From positions 2,854-66,853 of IMG/VR virus record IMGVR_UViG_3300015241_000149: a stretch of DNA of 64,000 bases. One strand, 5' to 3'. The notes beneath the pieces are model-generated. The model was not told the DNA's origin. It made no database searches and saw nothing but the letters and a program-made list of their open reading frames with translations. The DNA comes from a virus. The first letter of the stretch is position 1; each line of letters opens with the position of its first letter. The position numbers and the translations under genes were made by a program. Below, in pieces: positions 1,682 to 64,000 of the stretch.

Positions 1682-2020
1682 CTAGCGGAAGCGGTTCCGC
1701 CCACCCTTGCGCGAGTTGCAGGCCCGGCACAGCACCGACGCGTTGGCCTCATCGCTGGAACCGCCCTCAGATCGGCTCACAACGTGATCCAGGGTCAAGC
1801 CGCCTGCTGGTACCGGGTGCGGGTCCACGCCGTGTCCGGGGCAGAGCCAGCCGTACGCAGCAACCCATCTGACGATGACGGTGGCGCGCAGCTTCTGGTG
1901 TGGCCGGCCTAGTCCCCGGTCGTTGGTCTTGGCCTGGTAGCCGGACGCGGCGGGGTGTGCGGCGCAGCGCGCGCCGGTCTTGGTCGGTGTGCCACACACC
2001 AGGCACGGACGCGCCGCCAT
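1682..2020 (-). CDS. HNH endonuclease (packaging-associated type)
   Basis: RPCLVCG...RCAAH N-terminus, LTLDHVV...GG...N..VLCRACNSRKG. Confidence 0.9.
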   Translation of the reverse strand: MAARPCLVCGTPTKTGARCAAHPAASGYQAKTNDRGLGRPHQKLRATVIVRWVAAYGWLCPGHGVDPHPVPAGGLTLDHVVSRSEGGSSDEANASVLCRACNSRKGGRNRFR

Positions 2021-2079
2021 AGCGCCCTCTCCCGCCGTCGTCGGGCCAGAACCTCCCGGCGCAACCTGTGTCCACTGCA

Positions 2080-2108
2080 TTGACAACGACGCCACATACC
2101 GGTAGAGT
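2080..2108 (+). promoter_or_regulatory. SigA-type promoter
   Basis: TTGACA(2080-2085)-17 nt-TAGAGT(2103-2108); shares CGGTAGAGTyCTACyT with the 885 promoter. Confidence 0.75.
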
Positions 2109-55895: not shown

Positions 55896-57143
55896 TCAGG
55901 TCGCCGGGCTCTTGAACGCCTTCACAGCGGCCGGGTCGTCCGGACGGGCGTCCAGGCGCAGGAAGCCCAGGAATCCGACCTGTAGGAAGTCGGCGTAGCG
56001 CTCCGTGAGCCGCAGCATGTGCACGTCCAGCACCTGACGGATGATGTAGGCGCGCTGGAAGTCGCCGAACAGGATCGACAGGCTGTTCGCCGCCAACGAC
56101 GGCATGCCCTGATCGATCGCGTAGGGCTGGCCGTTGATCGTCGGGCTCATGCCCGGTACCGGAATCGGCACCCAGAGCGGCCGGCCGAACCCGTCAACGA
56201 TCTTCCTGATCACCGCAAGGGTGTTGTCGTTGAGCAGGAAACGGCAGTTCTGCCGGTAGGCCGGGTCGAGCGCGTGCTCCAGGTCGATCAGGTTGTTGTA
56301 GGTCAGCACCCCGATGTTGCCGGCAGTGGGCTGCACAGCGACCGTGACGCCGGTGGTGACGCCGGTGGGCTGACCGCTGCCGGTCCCGTTGATGAAGTGC
56401 TGCGACACCGCGCGACCCAGCCGGATACCGAGGTGCGTCGGCAACCAGGTGTCCAGGTCGAACACCGAGTCCTGCAAGATCTGCAAGGAGGCCAGAACCA
56501 GGTTCGAGGAGTACATGTAGGCCCCGATGGTCCGGGTGCCGAACGTGGTCTCAACCTCGGCGACCTGCGTGTTCTCCCCGATGATCTGGCCAACCTCGGA
56601 GGTGCCGTCGTGGGTGGGCCACTGGAGCGGGTTGCCGGTCGCGGTCTGGATGACGTTGGCGAAGTTGATCAGACCGCCGTACGCCTTCATCGTCTCAACC
56701 AGCACCTGGCGGTAACCCGGCGGAACCAGGTAGCCACCGACGGCGCCCGAAGTGGTGCCCTGCGCGGCGCGGGCATCCATGTAGTGGTTCGCCAGCAGTC
56801 CCCGACGCTCGGGGTTCAGCCCTTCCAGGCCGCCGCGCATGTAGGTGCGGAAGGCGTCCTCGTACTCCACGCCGCGCCGGGCTTCGAGCTCCTCGCGGGT
56901 TTCCTTGCGCTCATCCACGCCGTTGGCGTTGAGCACCCGGGAGTAGTCCGGCGAGTCGAGCTCGGCCATCCGCCGGTTGCGCTCGATCGTGGCGAGCACC
57001 TTGTCCAGGTCAGCGTTGGCCGCGTTCCAGTTGGCGTCCTCCTCGGCGGTGAGATCCCGACCTTCGGCCTTGGCCGTGTCGACGATCTCCTTCATCCTGT
57101 TCCAGATCCGGTGCTGGGGATCCAGCTCGTCGCGCTCACTCAT
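55896..57143 (-). CDS. major capsid protein, HK97 family
   Basis: N-terminal coiled-coil delta domain, GGYLVP, GTGSGQPTG, FGDF..YII, VGF....R.D. Confidence 0.95.
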   Translation of the reverse strand: MSERDELDPQHRIWNRMKEIVDTAKAEGRDLTAEEDANWNAANADLDKVLATIERNRRMAELDSPDYSRVLNANGVDERKETREELEARRGVEYEDAFRTYMRGGLEGLNPERRGLLANHYMDARAAQGTTSGAVGGYLVPPGYRQVLVETMKAYGGLINFANVIQTATGNPLQWPTHDGTSEVGQIIGENTQVAEVETTFGTRTIGAYMYSSNLVLASLQILQDSVFDLDTWLPTHLGIRLGRAVSQHFINGTGSGQPTGVTTGVTVAVQPTAGNIGVLTYNNLIDLEHALDPAYRQNCRFLLNDNTLAVIRKIVDGFGRPLWVPIPVPGMSPTINGQPYAIDQGMPSLAANSLSILFGDFQRAYIIRQVLDVHMLRLTERYADFLQVGFLGFLRLDARPDDPAAVKAFKSPAT

Positions 57144-57208: not shown

Positions 57209-58417
57209 CTACTTCGGAAGGCGGAGCGCGACGCTCAGGGCGCGCATGCGTGCTTCCGCCATCTCCAGCGCCATATGCCGAGTGGTCACGGCCGGCTCGG
57301 TCGGTGCTGGTTGGTGCCCCTGGCCAGTGGTCTCACCCGGCTGGTCAGAGTTCTTGTCGTCGGCGTCGTCATCTGAGACTTGGACACCGAAACGTTTGAG
57401 AGCGGCCTGGATCTTGTCCTTGATCGAAGCAAGCTGCTCAGCGGTGTACAGAGCCGCGTTGCTGGCCTTGTTGATATAGCTCCAGGCCGCCTTGGCGTGC
57501 TCCTTGGTGTCGATGGGGTAGCGTTTTTTTCCATCGGACTGAAGTCCCGGGTCTGCGTAGGCGACATCGCCATAGGGTTTCTTCGGGTCGCGCTCCTCGA
57601 TGCCCAACTCGTCAGCGTTGTCCTCAACAGGCTCAGCGCCGGCGGTCGCGGTGGCCACCAACACGACGGCGTCGGCGTGCGCCCGCTCCACGACGCGCAC
57701 CTTGTCCTTGATCTTGTACCGCAGGTCCAGCTTCCGGGTGAGCCACTCGGGCAGCTCGGGGTCGTCGCCCCGGTCTTCCAGCATCAGTAGCCACTCGGGC
57801 TTGTACCGCTCGATCAGGCTGCGAACGCGTTCCCCACCGGCGGCGTAACGACTGCGCAGCGCGCGCAAGCCGGCGTCGGTCTCCTCATAGGCCGGGAAAG
57901 TCACCGGCGACACCTCGAGGAGCTGCACCTCGTTGACCCGACGCACCTCAACCTCGTGCTGGCCGTCGTCACGGGTGATGGTTTCAGTGGTCCAGGTGTC
58001 CTTGCCGGCCGGCACCCGGAACCCGAAGCTCATCCCGGTGATGTTGCCGTTGCGCAGGTTGATCTTCAGGTCGTTGACGTAGCTCAGCTCGGAGTCTAGA
58101 TCGGCATCGACAGCCAGCCCGCGCACGTCTTGAGTCAGCCGCAGCGTGCCGGCGGAGCGTCGTGCGACCACCTTCGAGCTGTCGTGGTCTATCAGCATCC
58201 GGGCGTCGCCCTCGGAAATCGTCTTAGTGAACGCACCGGGAGCGATTTCCTCGTAAAAACCCCAGGTCAACGGGTTCCCGATGGCGGTCCGGGAGTTGAA
58301 TACCGCCGCATGGCCGCCGAACCGGGGCACAGCGCCCTCGGTGGGGATGATGGCCAGGGCGGCAGCGTCCAGAGACAGGCCGCGACGCTCGTCGGCTACC
58401 GGAAGGCTGCGAGACAT
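57209..58417 (-). CDS. HK97-type prohead protease with extra C-terminal domain
   Basis: GHAAVFNS, E.IAPGAF, DHD, MSFGF, EVSPVTFPAY; later RYPIDTKEHAKAAWSYI. Confidence 0.92.
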   Translation of the reverse strand: MSRSLPVADERRGLSLDAAALAIIPTEGAVPRFGGHAAVFNSRTAIGNPLTWGFYEEIAPGAFTKTISEGDARMLIDHDSSKVVARRSAGTLRLTQDVRGLAVDADLDSELSYVNDLKINLRNGNITGMSFGFRVPAGKDTWTTETITRDDGQHEVEVRRVNEVQLLEVSPVTFPAYEETDAGLRALRSRYAAGGERVRSLIERYKPEWLLMLEDRGDDPELPEWLTRKLDLRYKIKDKVRVVERAHADAVVLVATATAGAEPVEDNADELGIEERDPKKPYGDVAYADPGLQSDGKKRYPIDTKEHAKAAWSYINKASNAALYTAEQLASIKDKIQAALKRFGVQVSDDDADDKNSDQPGETTGQGHQPAPTEPAVTTRHMALEMAEARMRALSVALRLPK

Positions 58418-58437
58418 CGCCGTTCCTCTCGTATGGG

Positions 58438-59685
58438 TCATGAATTCGCTGACGACGGTCCGAGTGAGGTGCTGGTCAGCGCGTTCTCGTTGGCTTGCTG
58501 CGCGGTGACCGAATCCAAGTACTTGTCCCCGCCCTCACGCGGCGGAAGATCTTCATCCTCGCGGATCTCGTTGGCGTTCAAGACACCCATCTCGAACATG
58601 ACCCGGCTCCACTCGGCGCGGGCAATTGAGTCACCGCGCAGCAACTGGCGAATCGAGTACCGGGCTATCAACCCGTCGCCGAGGAGCTCTTTGGTGACCC
58701 GCTGCTCGGTGGTGGCCAGCCAGGTGGGGTGCAGGTCGTACATGACGAACCCCAAGCCCTGCTGCTCCAGGCCGGTACCCCAGGTCGTCGACTTCTCGTG
58801 GTCGAAAAGCAGGAATGGCGGAACGCCGTAGTAGCGCCCGAGCTCGGTGAGCTGGAAACGCCGGCTCTCCAGAAGCTGCGCGTCGTCGTTGGGCATCGTC
58901 AGGCTCTGGAACTTCGCGCCGGAGTCCAGCACGGCCACCCGATGCGCCCGAGCCAGCCCGCCGAGCTTCTCCTGCCATTGCACTTGCAGCTTCTCGGCCT
59001 GCTGTTGGGTCAGCCGCTGCTCGGTCTGCAAGATGCCCGAGGTCAGGTTGCCCGAACCGAACAGGGTTGAGGCGTACTTCTCCGCGCCCAGAGCCAGCCC
59101 GATGCCTTGGCGGGCCATCTTGATGGGGCTCATCCCGCACACGCCGTCGTATCCCAGGCCCGGGAGGTGGAAAATCTCGTTCGAGGTCATCGCGTGGGTG
59201 CGGCCGGCATCGTCGGTGACCTGAAAGACCTTCCCGGACGGGTTCGCCGGCGTCGGCTTGGCCTTTCCGGGGATCACGTGGTTCGGCATGATCGGCATGA
59301 GGTACTGGATGGTGCCGTTGCCCCGTTTGAAGATCTTTTGAGCGTAGAAGTTGCCCCACAGGGTGCGGTGGACGTAGCTCAGCTTCCAGAACTCCAGTGG
59401 GGTCAAATCTGGGTGCGGATTGTCCAGAAGTGAGTGCTCGACGGGCTGTTTGGTGGTCTTGTCGTAGACATTGAGCGGCAAAGCGCCGCCCAGACCCGAA
59501 ATCAGGCTCACACAGCGCCATACCGCCGAGAAATTGAGCGAAGTGAGCTCGGTGACGGCCATCCCGGCGTCGGTTGGTGACCCTCCGAGCACCGAAAGCA
59601 GGCTCAGATCGGTCAGCGGGACGGCCGGATTCTCGATGTTGAGACGCTGCTCGGCGTCGCGCGGGGCCCAACGGAACAGGCTCAC
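58438..59685 (-). CDS. portal protein, HK97 family
   Basis: AVWRCV..IS, GNFY, G.SPI, QLLESRRF, GVPP, NEIR..E.LPP..GGD. Confidence 0.95.
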   Translation of the reverse strand: MSLFRWAPRDAEQRLNIENPAVPLTDLSLLSVLGGSPTDAGMAVTELTSLNFSAVWRCVSLISGLGGALPLNVYDKTTKQPVEHSLLDNPHPDLTPLEFWKLSYVHRTLWGNFYAQKIFKRGNGTIQYLMPIMPNHVIPGKAKPTPANPSGKVFQVTDDAGRTHAMTSNEIFHLPGLGYDGVCGMSPIKMARQGIGLALGAEKYASTLFGSGNLTSGILQTEQRLTQQQAEKLQVQWQEKLGGLARAHRVAVLDSGAKFQSLTMPNDDAQLLESRRFQLTELGRYYGVPPFLLFDHEKSTTWGTGLEQQGLGFVMYDLHPTWLATTEQRVTKELLGDGLIARYSIRQLLRGDSIARAEWSRVMFEMGVLNANEIREDEDLPPREGGDKYLDSVTAQQANENALTSTSLGPSSANS

Positions 59686-59825
59686 CGGCGGGCCGCCGCT
59701 TCACACAGCGCAAGACCCAGTAGTCCAACCAGAGCAATGGCCGCATACGGGCTGATCAACGCCACACCACCCAGCGTGAGCACCACGAAGAACCCTTGCA
59801 GCACGGTCAGGGCCCACTCAGGCAT
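59682..59825 (-). CDS. small 2-TM protein upstream of portal
   Basis: 47-aa hydrophobic ORF read from sequence, GTGA overlap with portal. Confidence 0.65.
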   Translation of the reverse strand: MPEWALTVLQGFFVVLTLGGVALISPYAAIALVGLLGLALCEAAARR

Positions 59826-59857
59826 GCGCTGGCCCCTTCCATGATCGAGTTGTACTA

Positions 59858-59892
59858 CCAGGTTGACAAATGGGGCCTGCGGACCGCATGCT
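59858..59892 (+). promoter_or_regulatory. promoter antisense to the late operon
   Basis: CCAGG-TTGACA(59863)-18 nt-CATGCT(59887). Confidence 0.6.
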
Positions 59893-59898
59893 GTACAA

Positions 59899-60128
59899 GA
59901 TTTCCTTGGTCCGAAATCAACTGAGTGATGTGCAGACAGATGGCCCCCGCTGGCTCTGGGCGGGGGCCATCTTCTATCCTCGGCTCCGGAAAACCCCTGA
60001 TCGGGGATCTCGGGCTACCCGTCCGCCGATCAGGGGTTTTCCGCTGTCTCTGAGTGGGGACTATCCTCGACCTCGGAAAGCCCCTGATCGGGTTCTTGGA
60101 CGCGTCGATCCCGGTCGGGGGTTTTCCG
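59899..60128 (+). ncRNA. four-hairpin non-coding RNA including two repeat units 87 nt apart
   Basis: Stems at 59899-59918, 59938-59972, 59987-60043, 60074-60128; four G-U pairs valid only on + strand. Confidence 0.65.
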
Positions 60129-60130
60129 CG

Positions 60131-61765
60131 TCACCAGATGTTGAAGCCGCCAGTGTCGCCGAACCCGTGACCGTGCTCCAGGGCCCAACCCCGGCCTTCC
60201 AGGGCCAACAACGCGGCCACGAACGGGGAAATGGTCCGCGCGTCCTTGCGCACCACCCGCTGGTAGTACTCCGGCATCCCCGCCGCGCGTTCCTCGGCCG
60301 ACGGGCGGCGCTTGCCGTGCGCCAACGCGGTGGCCGCCGCCGCCCTGGACAGCTCCTCGCAGCCATCGTGGGTGAACATCTCGTTCTCACCCTTGGCCCG
60401 ATGCGCGGTGGTGAACCGCTCGATCACCGCGTCCATCCGAGCTTCGCTGTTCAGCGGGAAGCTCATGATCCGGATCCGCTCCTCGCCCTGGTAGGTGGGC
60501 GGCTGGTCGTAGAGCCCAGACCAGGTGTCGAGCTCGTCTTGCCAACCGTGCGGCGCGGCGAACATCACGATGACGTCGTAGGCGGTGAACGCGTCCTGTA
60601 CCGCCTCGTGCACCTGCGGACGTGGGATAACCCAGTCGGAGGGAGCGCCGATTGGCTTGTCCCACGTCCGCAAGTGGGTGGTGAACCCGTCGGAGAGCCT
60701 TGCCGCCACCAGGGACGTCGAATCCCGGTTCTGCGAGCCGTGAAAGCCGAGCGCGACCTGATCCCCGGGCTTGAGGCTCAACTCGCCCCGGGCCTGCGCC
60801 ACCCACTTGATCATGTCGACCGCGTCGCTACTGCCGACGCTGATTTCGTTGAGGAAGAACCGCCGTGCCTCACCCTCGCCGGTCGCCGGGTCCCGGATCT
60901 CGGCGATGATGCGCTCAGGGCGCACCCAGCCGCCCCGGGAGATGGACGAATCGCCGTAGACGTACTCGACCTCGCGCGACAGGGCCGCGTCGTCATCCAG
61001 GTCGATGCGGCCTCGCGGCGGGCGGTAATCGATGTAGACCCCGGGGGCCTTCGCCTGATACGTCAGCTGCGCGACCGAGCCCTGCCCGGGGTCCCAGGCG
61101 TTGGTGATCTCCAGCCAGCGGCCGTCCATGCCGGCGGCGTTACGTTTCATCGCCCGAGCCATCTTCAACCCACCCGAGGTCTCCGTCATCAGATGCGACT
61201 CGGTGAGGGTGAAAAACGTCAATCGGGCGCCCAATCGAGCCCTCGCGGACGCCGTTACCGGCTCTATTCTCCCGCCATCTGGCAAATTAATTCGGGACTC
61301 TCCAACGTCCAACCCCGGTGTCGAACTGACCGGACCACCGCGCAGCATAGCCACGATTGGCCGGAACGTATTGTCGGTCTGTTCCTCAGCGTTTCCGGCG
61401 CACTGGATCCACGGAGTGGGCATCGGCATTCCGACGGGCTCCCCAGCGGCATCCCAGCCAGCGAAACGGACAGGCCCGAGGGCTTCGGCGCAGACACGAG
61501 CGGCTCCCAGGGGGTCTTTTCCCCACTTCTGGGGTCGAATGAGCGCCGCACCGTAGTACTGGAAGGCCAATGAGCCCATTTCGGGAGTGGCGTCGGGGAT
61601 CAGGCGGTAGGTCTGGAGGATATGGCGCCACATCTCATCGGTAAGCAGATAGGGCCGCCCCTGACGCGTCCCGTCGGGCACGATCAGGTTGTCCTCGATC
61701 CAGTCCCCGACCTCGTACCCCAGGCTCGGGTACTCGCCCTTACGTCTCGGACCACGCCAGGGCAC
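60131..61765 (-). CDS. large terminase subunit (canonical position) with degenerate nuclease motifs
   Basis: RPQKWGKDP Walker A, EEQTDNTF, ITNAWDPG, RRFFLN; GFHGS / FAAP / TISP where Asp is expected. Confidence 0.9.
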   Translation of the reverse strand: MPWRGPRRKGEYPSLGYEVGDWIEDNLIVPDGTRQGRPYLLTDEMWRHILQTYRLIPDATPEMGSLAFQYYGAALIRPQKWGKDPLGAARVCAEALGPVRFAGWDAAGEPVGMPMPTPWIQCAGNAEEQTDNTFRPIVAMLRGGPVSSTPGLDVGESRINLPDGGRIEPVTASARARLGARLTFFTLTESHLMTETSGGLKMARAMKRNAAGMDGRWLEITNAWDPGQGSVAQLTYQAKAPGVYIDYRPPRGRIDLDDDAALSREVEYVYGDSSISRGGWVRPERIIAEIRDPATGEGEARRFFLNEISVGSSDAVDMIKWVAQARGELSLKPGDQVALGFHGSQNRDSTSLVAARLSDGFTTHLRTWDKPIGAPSDWVIPRPQVHEAVQDAFTAYDVIVMFAAPHGWQDELDTWSGLYDQPPTYQGEERIRIMSFPLNSEARMDAVIERFTTAHRAKGENEMFTHDGCEELSRAAAATALAHGKRRPSAEERAAGMPEYYQRVVRKDARTISPFVAALLALEGRGWALEHGHGFGDTGGFNIW

Positions 61766-62545
61766 GATAAGCCTCTTCGGTGCTCAGCTCGGGCCCGTCG
61801 GCGGCGCTACGCAGCTCCGGCGGGATCTTCTCGGTTGGGACATCTCTCCAGTGCCGCAGCTCGCGCAGCCGACGCAGCCGCGCGGGAGTCCATTCGCCGC
61901 TGCGGAACAGCTCGACGTACTCCCGGCGCTCGCGCAGGCCCATCAGTTCCCCTCCATCAGTCCTCCGACAAGTACAGAACCAGGTCGCAAGTGGCCGACC
62001 CAGTGGTGCGGTCGACGTAGAGCCCCGTGATGAAGGTGGGCCCGGGAACCAGCGCGGTTTGCGACTCACCAGACGCGTACCCGATGAGCGCAATCGGCGT
62101 GCCACCGGTGCTAGTGCCGTCCCGCAGCGTCACCTTGGCCGCCGTCGCGGCTGTGTCGCGCACCGACCAGCCGAACAGGACGCCTCGGCCGGTGTACGCC
62201 TGTACGTTCGTAGCTCCGGCCGGCACGGAGATAGACAGCGCCATGTCAGATGCTGGTTGCGATGAAGGTGCTGCCCGACATCTGCGCGTTCGGTACGACC
62301 AGCCACGACCCGTAGTTGAAGCCGACCCAGTCGTTTGGGTTCACAGTCAGCACCTGGCCTGAAGAGACGATGCACAGCGCAATAGTCGGCGCACCCACCG
62401 TGGCCACCACCTCGAACCCGGCCGGCAGTACTGCTGCCCAATCAGCAGCAAACGCGGTCTTGAATGCTGCTAGTGAACCCGACACGTATTGGGTGAAGCT
62501 GTACCGCTTGACATCCGAGGTTTTGACGTACTCGCTGGTGGCCAC
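61740..62545 (-). CDS. three small genes between terS and terL (61740-61943, 61957-62244, 62246-62545)
   Basis: RBS GGAGG before 61943; beta-rich small proteins. Confidence 0.65.
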
Positions 62546-62554
62546 AAGGCGCCC

Positions 62555-62996
62555 CTATTCTTCGAACCAGATGTTGACCGAGAACTCTCCGCCGTTTGAA
62601 CCATCAGCCACGAGGACCCCGATGGAATTTCCGGGATTTACAGTAATGCCCTGGCCATCCCCGAAGTCACGCACAACAGACTCACTATTACTCATTGCCC
62701 AACTCGTCACAGATGCCAAAGTTGTCGAAATGCTCAAGGCGCCCGTCATCGCGGTTGCCTGTGCGGTAACAGCAGACTGATCCACCACCGACACCACCGT
62801 AACCGCGACACCTGGAGTTGGCGTGGAGCAGCGGGACAAGGTGGCGAACCCTTCCAGGTGATTAGCCACATTATTCTTGTAATAGCTAATCTCAACCCGA
62901 CGTATAATCAGGCCAGTAGCCCCAGCCCGTCAAAATTATCGACCACGGATTCGGCCCCGGCAGCCCCAAACCATTGACTGTATACTGGCTGCTCAT
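62555..62996 (-). pseudogene. frameshifted virion accessory gene (single-base insertion or sequencing error)
   Basis: ATG 62996 with AAGGA RBS; span 442 nt = 147 codons + 1; removing one G near 62926-62928 joins SIILT to AGATGLIIRRVEIS...WFEE. Confidence 0.65.
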
Positions 62997-63010
62997 GTAT
63001 TTCCTTACCC

Positions 63011-63355
63011 TTAGTCAACTGGGAACGGGTCGGGCACGCGGGCGCCCAGGTCAATCTCTCGGTGCACGGTGATCTGTTCGCCGTCCCGCTCGCCGTACTC
63101 CAGCCAGACGATCTTGTTCTCGATGTCCGTGTCCGCCTCGCCCTGGCGCTGTACCCAGTGCGTGAGCAGCACCTCGGCCGGGTCGATGCCGTGCGCGGTG
63201 AACCAGGCTTGCCACAACTCCCGGTGCGCCCGGTTCTCGTGGTTGATGTCTTCCCGGAAGTAGTCCCGCACGTGGTAGTGCCCGTCGTCGGTGCAGCCGT
63301 GGTCAGGGCCCTTTGCCGCGTGCCGGCAGCGTCGCAGGTTGGTACGCCGCTTCAC
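63011..63355 (-). CDS. hypothetical protein
   Basis: 114-aa ORF, WFTAHGIDP. Confidence 0.6.
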   Translation of the reverse strand: MKRRTNLRRCRHAAKGPDHGCTDDGHYHVRDYFREDINHENRAHRELWQAWFTAHGIDPAEVLLTHWVQRQGEADTDIENKIVWLEYGERDGEQITVHREIDLGARVPDPFPVD

Positions 63356-63458: not shown

Positions 63459-63914
63459 TCATACCGCCTCATCCACCGCCGCGACCCGGTGCCCACGCTC
63501 CACGACGACCTCATCGCGGCGCCAGTCAGAGAGCTCATCGTGCGCGGTTTCCCAGTTCAACCGCAGCATCGCCGACGGGGTGAGCCCCAACTGGCCCTCC
63601 AGCTGTCTAGCCTCGCTGACCAGATTGGACTGTGCCATCGACAACTTGCCGATCATGTTCTCAGCGGCGATGGAGATCCGTACGTACCGAGCGACGATGG
63701 GCCCAATGTCCAGCTTGATCAATTCAGCCGCCGCCGGTGTGCGCCACACCCAGGACCACTTTCGCATCTCCATGGCGGAGCACTCTTCCAGTGGCCATTG
63801 CGGAATAGGGCCTGTGTAACCCTCATTCGGAAGGACCGCTCGCGCCATAGAGGGGGCATTCGTACGGCGCCGTAGAGAAGGGTCCTTGCTCAGTGGACCT
63901 CGGGATCCGCTCAT
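63459..63914 (-). CDS. small terminase subunit
   Basis: RGPLSK...RRRTN, P.WPL, W...WRTP.A, E.R.LE..LGLTP..M.RL.W; AGGAGG RBS. Confidence 0.88.
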   Translation of the reverse strand: MSGSRGPLSKDPSLRRRTNAPSMARAVLPNEGYTGPIPQWPLEECSAMEMRKWSWVWRTPAAAELIKLDIGPIVARYVRISIAAENMIGKLSMAQSNLVSEARQLEGQLGLTPSAMLRLNWETAHDELSDWRRDEVVVERGHRVAAVDEAV

Positions 63915-64000
63915 TTCGACACCTCCTTTGTTTTCTATTCAAAACCCGTATTCTGCGTTATCGAATTGAATACCCGTACATATCGCGTTGCAGCGATAAG

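What the first reader, a model, noticed from the sequence alone, without database searches (positions are those of the whole stretch)
60131..61765. Canonical large terminase looks nuclease-dead: three expected catalytic Asp replaced
Seen: the C-terminal domain reads LGFHGS (codon CAC at 60740-60742), MFAAPHGW (~60554) and RTISPFVAA (~60227), while the ATPase half (PQKWGKDP, TNAW, RRFFLN) is intact and the ORF unbroken. Known: TerL RNase H-fold domains use acidic metal ligands; as I recall this family they read GFDGS, xxDP and KIDxxVA. Inference: three separate Asp losses point to a motor-only terminase that must rely on another protein for end cutting. The Walker B region (FTLTESH) also lacks the usual Asp, but that may be a family variant.
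Basis: partly seen in the sequence, partly recalled or inferred. Interest (0 to 1): 0.9.

Follow-up and report, generated by a model that had tools for sequence, protein, structure and literature searches.

The report
Phage packaging motor without its cutter
This soil phage's DNA-packaging enzyme has lost the three residues it would need to cut DNA, as have all its close relatives, yet these phages still make precisely cut genome ends, so a separate small nuclease probably does the cutting.

Summary
ORF 60131-61765(-) is an intact 544-aa HK97-type large terminase (TerL). A profile alignment to the solved HK97 TerL puts its H342, A404 and S513 on that enzyme's catalytic D302, D388 and D471.

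This is a clade trait, not a lone defect. In a tree of 121 relatives, all 62 TerLs without the triad form one clade (support 100), nested among relatives that keep D-D-D. A fourth conserved Asp (D386) is also relaxed. The nuclease domain stays as conserved, relative to the ATPase, as in D-D-D relatives.

The window is a 97%-complete, 66.9-kb viral contig with only one TerL. Seven independent contigs of the clade end at the same aligned base just upstream of terS, in a site homologous to the end of D-D-D relatives. Other contigs read through that site, so site-specific cutting persists. An HK97 gp74-like HNH endonuclease gene is present in 4 of 4 near-complete genomes of the clade.

Best reading: TerL is a pseudo-nuclease motor and HNH cuts cos. 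This is inferred, not assayed. The odd Walker B (T-E) is a family-wide variant paired with a Walker A Asp. New variant of a known kind.

The parts
60131..61765 (-). Large terminase (TerL), 544 aa, HK97 type. It is the only TerL in the 66.9-kb record.
   Evidence: ORF. PHROG 9 and PHROG 19179 'terminase large subunit'. Profile match to PDB 6z6d at E=1.3e-22. Foldseek top hit 6z6d at E=5.6e-22. Single copy.
60806..61765 (-). ATPase half (about residues 1-320). Walker A PQKWGKDP is encoded at 61511-61534 and Walker B FFTLTE at 61199-61216. K83 and E189 are kept. D84 and T188 stand in place of the usual Ser/Thr and Asp.
   Evidence: Invariant K83, and E189 in at least 90% of rows, in 56 diverse relatives. 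Walker A/B covariation table. Alignment to HK97 K60/T61 and D153/E154.
60131..60778 (-). RNase H-fold 'nuclease' half (about residues 330-544) without the catalytic triad. H342 is encoded at 60740-60742, A404 at 60554-60556 and S513 at 60227-60229. H386 (60608-60610) replaces a further conserved Asp. D348 (60722-60724) is kept. E411 (60533-60535) is a clade-specific gain.
   Evidence: AF2 model with mean pLDDT 80.9 and the beta1-3 / alpha / beta4 / alpha order of the fold.
63459..63914 (-). Putative small terminase (TerS), 151 aa.
   Evidence: It is the homologue of the gene that lies directly upstream of TerL in D-D-D relatives and in clade members L032, L041, L046 and L047 (cluster 3, 35 loci). 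Its only family hit is PHROG 226, labelled 'minor tail protein'. The TerS role is inferred from position.
63915..64000 (.). Genome end (cos region). The contig stops at window base 64000, 86 nt upstream of terS. Read on the minus strand, the end begins CTTATCGCTGCAACGCGATATGTACG.
   Evidence: Seven of 7 clade contigs that stop upstream of terS stop at the same aligned base, with [TC][GC]TACG starting at nt 21. The same site lies internally in 7 read-through contigs. A homologous motif lies at the ends of D-D-D relatives.
1682..2095 (-). HNH endonuclease, 137 aa, gp74-like candidate cos nuclease. It is on the same strand as the terminase genes and about 6.8 kb upstream of TerL on the circular map.
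   Evidence: Pfam HNH E=1.8e-8 and HNH_5 E=3.9e-7. Invariant C31, C34, C44, H93, H104, C123 and N127, and D103 and C126 in at least 90% of 16 homologues. Orthologue found in 11 of 19 clade loci; the other 8 lack the upstream DNA. Present in 4 of 4 clade records that are at least 90% complete.
63011..63355 (-). Conserved small gene of unknown function just downstream of terS. The ORF is 114 aa, with a conserved core of about 86 aa.
   Evidence: Present in 12 of 19 clade loci and in 0 of 18 D-D-D loci. Absent where terS abuts terL (L032, L041, L046, L047). No Pfam hit above threshold, and no PHROG, NCBIfam or Atlas hit. AF2 pLDDT 78 with no fold match.
59682..59825 (-). 47-aa predicted membrane-spanning ORF between TerL and portal. 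It is specific to the clade.
   Evidence: Read directly from the sequence. It resembles the 'cluster 11' ORFs that follow TerL in clade loci; the likeness was judged by eye.
58438..59685 (-). Portal protein. It places TerL in a normal head-packaging module.
   Evidence: Pfam Phage_portal E=5.4e-77 and PHROG 12. The S78 protease (57209-58441) and the major capsid protein (55896-57143) follow.

Best explanation
The gene encodes the phage's single large terminase. Its N-terminal ATPase still drives DNA into the prohead. It keeps the Walker A Lys and the Walker B Glu, with a family-specific swap of the Mg-contacting pair to Asp84/Thr188. Its C-terminal RNase H-fold domain is kept as a structural, portal-docking and DNA-holding part, but it can no longer carry out two-metal phosphodiester hydrolysis. 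All three catalytic Asp, and a fourth conserved Asp, have been replaced.

Concatemers are still cut at a conserved cos site just upstream of terS. The cut is most likely made by the phage's gp74-like HNH endonuclease. TerS and TerL would recruit and position it, so that HNH takes over the strand that TerL cuts in HK97-type relatives.

Shown here: the loss of the triad, its fixation in one clade, a conserved domain, fixed ends, read-through forms and the presence of HNH. Inferred: that the domain is catalytically dead, and that HNH is the substitute.
For: 1. Catalytic positions. H342, A404 and S513 align with HK97 TerL D302, D388 and D471, named as the catalytic centre in PMC9410871 (passage). 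HK97 TerL is the best structural match of the AF2 model.

2. Ancestry. D-D-D is ancestral, found in 167 of 268 homologues. In a FastTree of 121 full-length rows, the 62 rows without the triad form one clade with support 100 and one change of state.

3. Position 342 varies inside the clade between H, Y, I, F, R, Q, L and T. An essential metal ligand or general base is unlikely to vary like this. D386, which is 95% Asp in D-D-D relatives, is relaxed to 41% His.

4. The domain is still under selection. The ratio of nuclease to ATPase mean pairwise identity is 0.657/0.700 in the clade and 0.566/0.595 in D-D-D relatives. Basic residues R487, R503 and K507 are at least 90% conserved in the clade.

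5. G000 (97% complete) holds only one TerL. No Terminase_6C or TerL_nuclease Pfam match lies elsewhere in it.

6. Cutting persists. Seven of 7 clade contigs that stop upstream of terS stop at the same aligned nucleotide. Seven other contigs read through that site. The site shares CGC...TGTACG with the ends of 16 of 33 D-D-D contigs.

7. HNH is present over the Pfam cut-off in 4 of 4 clade records that are at least 90% complete, and in 7 of 12 clade records overall. Its Zn-binding Cys residues and the D-H...N motif are conserved. In clade members L041, L046 and L047 the HK97-like order HNH-terS-terL is contiguous.

8. Published model: the HNH endonuclease nicks one strand and TerL the other (PMC12967558 discussion passage). 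gp74 binds TerL and is essential in vivo (PMC13595911 passage).

9. Complex prediction for TerL plus HNH gave weak support only. The score was 0.50 and the best of 3 controls 0.01. That mark was reached by 58 of 80 solved complexes and 2 of 110 mismatched pairs, but at 0.60 or under by only 7 of the 80 solved complexes and by both mismatches that passed. The runs agree in at least 34% of contacts, and the partner's pLDDT is at least 51.
Against: - No biochemistry exists. Inactivity is read from sequence alone.
- The replacement residues are not drifting freely. S513 is 99% conserved, position 404 is mostly S or T, H342 is 83%, and the clade has gained E411 (96%, Tyr in D-D-D relatives) while keeping D348. 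A remodelled site is therefore possible.
- I could not measure distances, because model coordinates are not exposed.
- HNH is equally common in D-D-D relatives (5 of 6 records that are at least 90% complete). Its presence is necessary for this reading but not specific to the loss.
- In this genome HNH is not adjacent to the terminase genes. It lies about 6.8 kb upstream on the circular map, with genes on the opposite strand in between.
- Fixed ends are inferred from where metagenome contigs stop, not from virion DNA. Logan contigs of four soil runs gave no information on ends.
- The complex prediction is weak.
Confidence: 0.58

Rival explanations
1. The domain still cuts DNA with a rebuilt active site. 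H342, S/T404, S513, the gained E411 and the retained D348 would form a new metal site or a Ser/His-type centre, so TerL remains a nuclease with different chemistry.
For: The replacement residues are conserved: S513 99%, E411 96% (against Tyr at 93% in D-D-D relatives), H342 83%, and D348 kept in 21 of the 22 triad-less loci typed (L032 has E). The domain is as constrained as in D-D-D relatives.
Against: Position 342 is I, F, L, Y, R, Q or T in about 17% of clade clusters, which arose several times on the tree. This window itself has Ala at 404. D386 was lost as well. I know of no RNase H-fold nuclease that works without at least two or three carboxylates (recalled, not tested).
Confidence: 0.14
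2. TerL is nuclease-dead, but the cutter is not the HNH protein. It would be another phage or host factor, for example the clade-specific small protein at 63011-63355, a RuvB-associated resolvase or a host nuclease.
For: A conserved gene of unknown fold sits in the terminase module of 12 of 19 clade loci and of 0 of 18 D-D-D loci. A RuvB homologue (NCBIfam RuvB E=2e-73) lies next to cos in 7 clade loci. HNH is not specific to the clade.
Against: The small gene is absent from clade members L032, L041, L046 and L047, where terS abuts terL. It shows no nuclease motif or fold match. RuvB is a motor, not a nuclease. HNH is the only recognisable nuclease shared by all 4 near-complete genomes of the clade, although I searched the records only for HNH and for two terminase-nuclease Pfam families.
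Confidence: 0.15
3. No terminase-linked cutting is needed. Genomes would be made as unit-length linear molecules, as in phi29, whose packaging ATPase has a vestigial nuclease domain.
For: Phi29 is a precedent for an inactive TerL nuclease domain (PMC13595956 passage).
Against: Seven contigs of the clade read through the end site, so joined (concatemeric, circular or integrated) forms exist. The end site is homologous to that of D-D-D relatives. TerS and HNH are kept. The replication genes that I scanned are Prim-Pol/helicase types, with no protein-primed polymerase among the 10 proteins scanned.
Confidence: 0.04
4. The triad loss marks decaying or defective elements, or sequencing error, rather than working phages.
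For: All clade members come from metagenomes. No cultured phage is more than 40.4% identical.
Against: Seventy clusters at 90% identity carry intact ORFs of about 530-545 aa. The domain is under purifying selection. Complete 62-71-kb genomes with full structural modules exist. The stretch is held by four soil runs from four studies, and one of them matches it without any difference at a depth of about 78.
Confidence: 0.03

Closest known systems
HK97 large terminase gp2 (PDB 6Z6D) with its HNH partner gp74 and TerS gp1
   Same: It is the best sequence-profile and fold match. Both have an ATPase plus an RNase H-fold domain. Both use cos-type fixed ends next to terS. Both genomes carry a small HNH endonuclease and have TerS, TerL and portal in the same order.
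   Different: HK97 keeps D302, D388 and D471. This clade has H, S/T/A and S there. Walker A/B read GKD and T-E instead of GKT and D-E. In most of the clade, HNH is separated from terS by inserted genes. Identity to 6z6d is only about 15%.
Phi29 gp16 packaging ATPase (vestigial, catalytically inactive nuclease-like C-terminal domain)
   Same: It is a packaging motor whose nuclease-fold domain no longer cuts but is retained (PMC13595956 passage).
   Different: Phi29 packages unit-length, protein-capped genomes and needs no cut. Here, joined forms and a conserved cos end exist, and TerS and HNH are present. The phi29-type motor appears only as a weak fold hit (7jq6, E=1.7e-4).
HNH-assisted cos packaging in Staphylococcus and Lactococcus phages (phi12/phiSLT HNH; Skunavirus HrdP)
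   Same: A small HNH endonuclease is required alongside TerS and TerL for cos maturation. The proposed division of labour is one nick each (PMC12967558 passage).
   Different: In those systems TerL is taken to be an active nuclease. Here TerL lacks the triad, so the division of labour cannot hold.
D-D-D sister lineages of the same TerL family in Actinomycetota prophages and phages (e.g. Nocardiopsis and Nonomuraea records L002, L003)
   Same: They share 50-57% identity, the same GKD/T-E ATPase variant, the same HNH and TerS families and a homologous cos motif.
   Different: They keep D342, D404, D513 and D386. HNH, terS and terL are contiguous in them. Their contig ends lie 6 nt closer to the TGTACG motif.

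Membership tests
HK97-type large terminase (PHROG 9; PDB 6Z6D; Pfam TerL_ATPase/TerL_nuclease lineage) | Significant sequence or profile similarity over both domains | tested here: met
   PHROG 9 E=1.5e-33 over residues 11-525, and PHROG 19179 E=2.4e-59. The family profile matches 6z6d_A at E=1.3e-22 over profile positions 10-505. The Pfam and NCBIfam models themselves do not hit, though some relatives carry PF20441.
HK97-type large terminase | Two-domain fold: ASCE ATPase plus RNase H-like domain | tested here: met
   AF2 model with pLDDT 80.9. Foldseek top hit 6z6d at E=5.6e-22, followed by the T4, D6E and Sf6 TerLs and the G20c nuclease domain.
HK97-type large terminase | Walker A Lys and Walker B catalytic Glu | tested here: met
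   K83 is invariant and E189 is present in at least 90% of 56 diverse relatives. They align with HK97 K60 and E154. The neighbouring Mg-contact pair is swapped to D84/T188.
HK97-type large terminase | Nuclease catalytic triad (HK97 D302, D388, D471) | tested here: not met
   H342, A404 and S513 occupy these columns. The triad is lost in all 62 clade rows of the tree.
HK97-type large terminase | Position in a TerS - TerL - portal - protease - capsid module | tested here: met
HNH-dependent cos packaging module (HK97 gp74 type) | HNH endonuclease gene with an intact beta-beta-alpha-metal motif in the genome, on the terminase strand near cos | tested here: met
   Pfam HNH E=1.8e-8. The D-H...N motif and two Cys pairs are conserved. 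The gene is on the same strand, 4.5 kb from the other genome end. It is directly adjacent to terS in L041, L046 and L047.
HNH-dependent cos packaging module (HK97 gp74 type) | Fixed cohesive genome ends next to terS | tested here: inconclusive
   Seven of 7 contigs stop at one aligned base and 7 others read through it. This fits cos, but overhangs and virion ends were not observed. Logan contigs were uninformative.
HNH-dependent cos packaging module (HK97 gp74 type) | Physical and functional dependence of cos cleavage on HNH | not testable with these tools
   There is only a weak complex prediction: score 0.50 against 0.01 for the best control.
Phi29-type nuclease-free packaging system | [quoted passage not shown] | tested here: not met
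   A TerS homologue is present. Read-through junction contigs exist. The replication proteins scanned are of Prim-Pol and helicase type. Not every ORF was scanned.

The most novel reading that the evidence does not exclude
In a whole lineage of cos phages the large terminase has handed all DNA cutting to the small HNH protein. This would show that in HK97-type machines the HNH endonuclease, not TerL, can be the sole cos nuclease. The 6-nt outward shift of the genome end relative to the conserved TGTACG motif would record the new cut geometry. An even bolder variant, which is not excluded, is that the conserved His/Ser/Ser/Glu set forms a new, non-carboxylate catalytic centre in an RNase H fold.
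Probability: 0.45. Interest if true: 0.8.

Novelty: new variant of a known kind. Interest (0 to 1): 0.68.

Why it matters
Why HK97-type terminases need a second nuclease, and which protein cuts which strand at cos, is still described as unresolved (PMC12967558 discussion passage). This clade works as a natural triple active-site knockout of TerL that evolution has kept for a long time, in at least 70 protein clusters. It sits beside sister lineages that keep the triad and use the same HNH, TerS and cos motif.

Comparing the two lineages would test directly whether HNH alone can mature cos ends. It would also show what the catalytically silent RNase H-fold domain contributes to the motor. Sporadic triad losses in other branches of the family suggest that the handover has happened more than once.

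The result also warns annotators. A 'terminase large subunit' call does not guarantee nuclease activity.

Tried and rejected
**Family and structure searches that gave nothing**
- Pfam and NCBIfam give no hit for TerL. A single-sequence PDB search gave only chance hits. The profile search was needed.
- A second TerL or a terminase nuclease domain elsewhere in the record: none found. PF20441 does not even detect the resident TerL, so the two Pfam searches are weak negatives.

**The small gene at 63011-63355 as the substitute nuclease**
- Rejected as an obligatory partner, because it is absent from 4 clade loci where terS abuts terL.
- It has no family hit. The only Pfam row, Sulphotransf at E=0.0077, is below the cut-off.
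- It has no Atlas neighbour and no fold match at E<=0.001 in PDB or BFVD.

**Searches for physical genome ends**
- My first strict regular expression found no internal copies of the end site. A position-count scan then found them.
- Sequencing runs: four soil-metagenome runs hold the stretch, but only as Logan contigs. These cannot show molecule ends and left the last 115 nt uncovered in X1 and X2. They give no evidence either way on physical ends.

**Searches for cultured or distant examples**
- Cultured relatives: none above 40.4% identity to P0001 or 42.3% to two other TerLs with altered triads. I did not type the triads of the 2,041 cultured actinophage hits.
- HNH linkage of distant triad-altered lineages: my HNH profile, built from 16 sequences, found HNH upstream in only 24 of 71 D-D-D loci. 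It was too narrow to use.

**Limits on what I could read or measure**
- Coordinates of the AF2 model are not exposed. I could not test whether E411 and D348 sit at the former metal site.
- Literature on a nuclease-inactive TerL paired with HNH: searches found none. Kala 2014 and Quiles-Puchalt 2014 are not held and are cited only through what other papers say of them.
- Paper supplements were not consulted. Those of PMC9410871 may hold TerL alignments that bear on the motif comparison.
- The tree kept the three triad columns among its 534 columns. It left out rows shorter than 480 aa or longer than 600 aa, which removes fragments and intein-bearing forms.
Full report
**Observation.** The minus-strand ORF at 60131-61765 is intact and encodes 544 aa. 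PHROGs call the protein a large terminase: PHROG 19179 at E=2.4e-59 and PHROG 9 at E=1.5e-33 over residues 11-525. Pfam, NCBIfam and a single-sequence PDB search give nothing, so the protein is a divergent terminase rather than a textbook one. It sits in an ordinary head module, followed by portal (58438-59685), an S78 protease fused to DUF6582 (57209-58441) and an HK97-fold capsid protein (55896-57143).

**Are the three residues really the catalytic positions?** I aligned 56 diverse relatives (A3) and searched the PDB with the resulting profile. The only hit was 6z6d_A, the HK97 large terminase, at E=1.3e-22. In that alignment the family columns that hold H342, A404 and S513 in this protein fall on chain residues D312, D398 and D481. 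Removing the chain's 10-residue tag gives D302, D388 and D471. The structure paper states that D302, D388 and D471 are at the catalytic centre of the RNase H-like domain (PMC9410871, passage read). An AF2 model (mean pLDDT 80.9) has 6z6d as its best Foldseek match (E=5.6e-22), followed by the T4, D6E and Sf6 terminases.

**A clade trait, not a lone defect.** The word-indexed search found 1,094 homologues. The exhaustive search found 1,579 representatives at E<=0.001.

- In a MAFFT alignment of the 268 sequences returned, the triad is D-D-D in 167. Seventy of the closest relatives have H/Y/I/F/R/Q/L/T at position 342, S/T/A/N/F at 404, and S (69 of 70) or A (1 of 70) at 513. An hmmalign check gave D-D-D in 165.
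- A FastTree of 121 full-length rows puts all 62 rows without the triad in one clade. Support is 100 and the stem length is 0.24. The clade is nested among D-D-D lineages, and the trait needs only one change of state.
- Within the clade, His342 was replaced several times by residues that cannot bind metal (I, F, L).
- A fourth Asp (column 386, in the first helix of the fold, 95% Asp in D-D-D relatives) is relaxed. Tyr411 became Glu in 96% of the clade, and D348 is retained.
- The nuclease half is not decaying. Its mean pairwise identity relative to the ATPase half is 0.94 in the clade and 0.95 in D-D-D relatives.
- Among viral and genomic loci, 22 carry a TerL without the triad and 74 carry a D-D-D TerL. 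Six are truncated and two are too short to tell.
- Other, distant branches show sporadic partial or complete losses with well-aligned motifs, for example P0162 (S-N-A), P0147 (H-N-N), P0192 (R-M-V) and P0234 (A-N-F).

**The ATPase.** Walker A Lys83 is invariant and Walker B Glu189 is kept in at least 90% of rows. Thr188 goes with Asp84 in Walker A (GKD) in 127 homologues, including all the near D-D-D relatives. The classic Ser plus Asp pair occurs in 86 homologues and Gly plus Asp in 21. This looks like a swap of the two Mg-contacting residues.

**Genome context.** The window is bases 2854-66853 of a 66,853-base viral record judged 97% complete. It holds a single TerL.

- The homologue of the gene that lies directly upstream of TerL in relatives, the presumed TerS, is at 63459-63914. 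It ends 86 nt from the end of the contig.
- An HNH endonuclease gene (window 1682-2095, minus strand; Pfam HNH E=1.8e-8) lies 4.5 kb from the other end of the record.
- In D-D-D relatives the order is HNH-terS-terL-portal, as in HK97. In the clade, genes have been inserted between HNH and terS, including a RuvB homologue on the opposite strand. Variable small ORFs lie between terS and terL. A small membrane ORF follows terL.
- Clade members L041, L046 and L047 keep HNH-terS-terL contiguous.
- HNH passes the Pfam cut-off in 4 of 4 clade records, and in 5 of 6 D-D-D records, that are at least 90% complete.

**Is DNA still cut?** Seven contigs of the clade stop upstream of terS: G000, L030, L032, L039, L042, L045 and L044. 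All stop at the same aligned nucleotide, 17-332 nt before terS, with [TC][GC]TACG starting exactly at nt 21. Seven other contigs carry the same site internally: L043, L031, L001, L036, L037, L028 and L048. Both cut and joined forms therefore exist. Sixteen of 33 D-D-D contigs that start just upstream of terS begin with NNNNNCTCGCAATCTGTACGG. That is a homologous site, but the end lies 6 nt closer to TGTACG. These are assembly ends rather than measured virion ends. Logan contigs from four soil runs could not add to this.

**Interpretation.**
- The canonical two-metal site is gone, the domain is retained, site-specific cutting continues, and the only recognisable nuclease common to the complete genomes is the gp74-like HNH protein.
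- Published work holds that HNH stimulates or shares cos cleavage with TerL. One view is a nick by each protein (PMC12967558 passage). gp74 binds TerL and is essential in vivo (PMC13595911 passage).
- The simplest reading is that in this clade HNH does all the cutting, while the TerL C-terminal domain holds DNA and docks on the portal.
- A complex prediction of TerL with HNH gave weak support: score 0.50 against 0.01 for the best control. Passes at or below 0.60 are more often wrong than right.
- The main rival is a rebuilt active site. The conservation of S513, S/T404 and E411 favours it. The variability of position 342, and Ala404 in this very protein, count against it.
- A phi29-like system with no cutting is a known precedent for a dead domain (PMC13595956 passage), but it conflicts with the read-through junctions and with the retained TerS and HNH.

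**Novelty.** Six full-text searches found no report of an HK97-type TerL that lacks the triad and is paired with HNH. The two primary HNH papers were not available to me. Earlier notes of this scan describe dead stand-alone or paralogous terminase domains in P1-like elements. Those are extra copies, not the sole terminase. I class this as a new variant of a known kind.

Noticed in passing
window 61511-61534 (Walker A) and 61199-61216 (Walker B): Walker A reads GKD and Walker B reads T-E. Across 256 homologues with both columns filled, Asp84/Thr188 occurs in 127, Ser/Asp in 86 and Gly/Asp in 21. This is an apparent swap of the two Mg-contacting residues of an ASCE ATPase, shared by relatives without the triad and by relatives with D-D-D.
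   Followed up: partly
proteins P0041, P0056, P0059, P0060, P0062, P0063 (869-916 aa): Several clade TerLs are about 340 aa longer and carry LAGLIDADG or Hom_end domains (PF14528, PF05204). These are inteins inserted in the terminase.
   Followed up: no
L027 1057-2259(+) (record G000, just outside the window's left edge): The phage encodes a full-length RuvB homologue (NCBIfam RuvB E=2e-73, below the equivalog cut-off). It lies between HNH and the genome end on the opposite strand and is conserved in 7 clade loci. No RuvA or RuvC was looked for.
   Followed up: partly
window 61947-62246 and 62544-63012: Soil-run contigs of related strains join across these stretches. The small ORFs 61957-62244 and 62555-62869, between terS and terL, are therefore optional cassettes (table 5).
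   Followed up: partly
window 59830-60130: The 300-nt gap after TerL holds two copies of an imperfect direct repeat of about 29 nt (gatcagggg...gaggatag) and a GC-rich hairpin, ahead of the 47-aa membrane ORF. Its function is unknown.
   Followed up: no
contig ends: window 64000; loci L030, L032, L039, L042, L044, L045 against L059-L105: The genome end lies 20 nt before the TGTACG motif in the clade without the triad and 14 nt before it in D-D-D relatives. This is a constant 6-nt shift and may reflect a different cut position.
   Followed up: partly
proteins P0129, P0132, P0147, P0156, P0158, P0162, P0174, P0192, P0203, P0229, P0234; loci L108, L179, L192, L224, L252: Independent partial or complete losses of the TerL catalytic Asp residues occur in distant branches of the same family. 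Their HNH status could not be settled.
   Followed up: partly
alignment A4 (HNH proteins): The HNH proteins of the clade without the triad keep the middle Asn of the H-N-N/H motif. Those of most D-D-D relatives have Pro, Asp, Gln or Glu followed by Leu at that place.
   Followed up: no
window 63459-63914: The terS-position gene matches only PHROG 226, which is labelled 'minor tail protein'. By synteny that label looks wrong for this family.
   Followed up: no
window 57209-58441: The prohead protease (Peptidase_S78) is fused to a DUF6582 domain.
   Followed up: no
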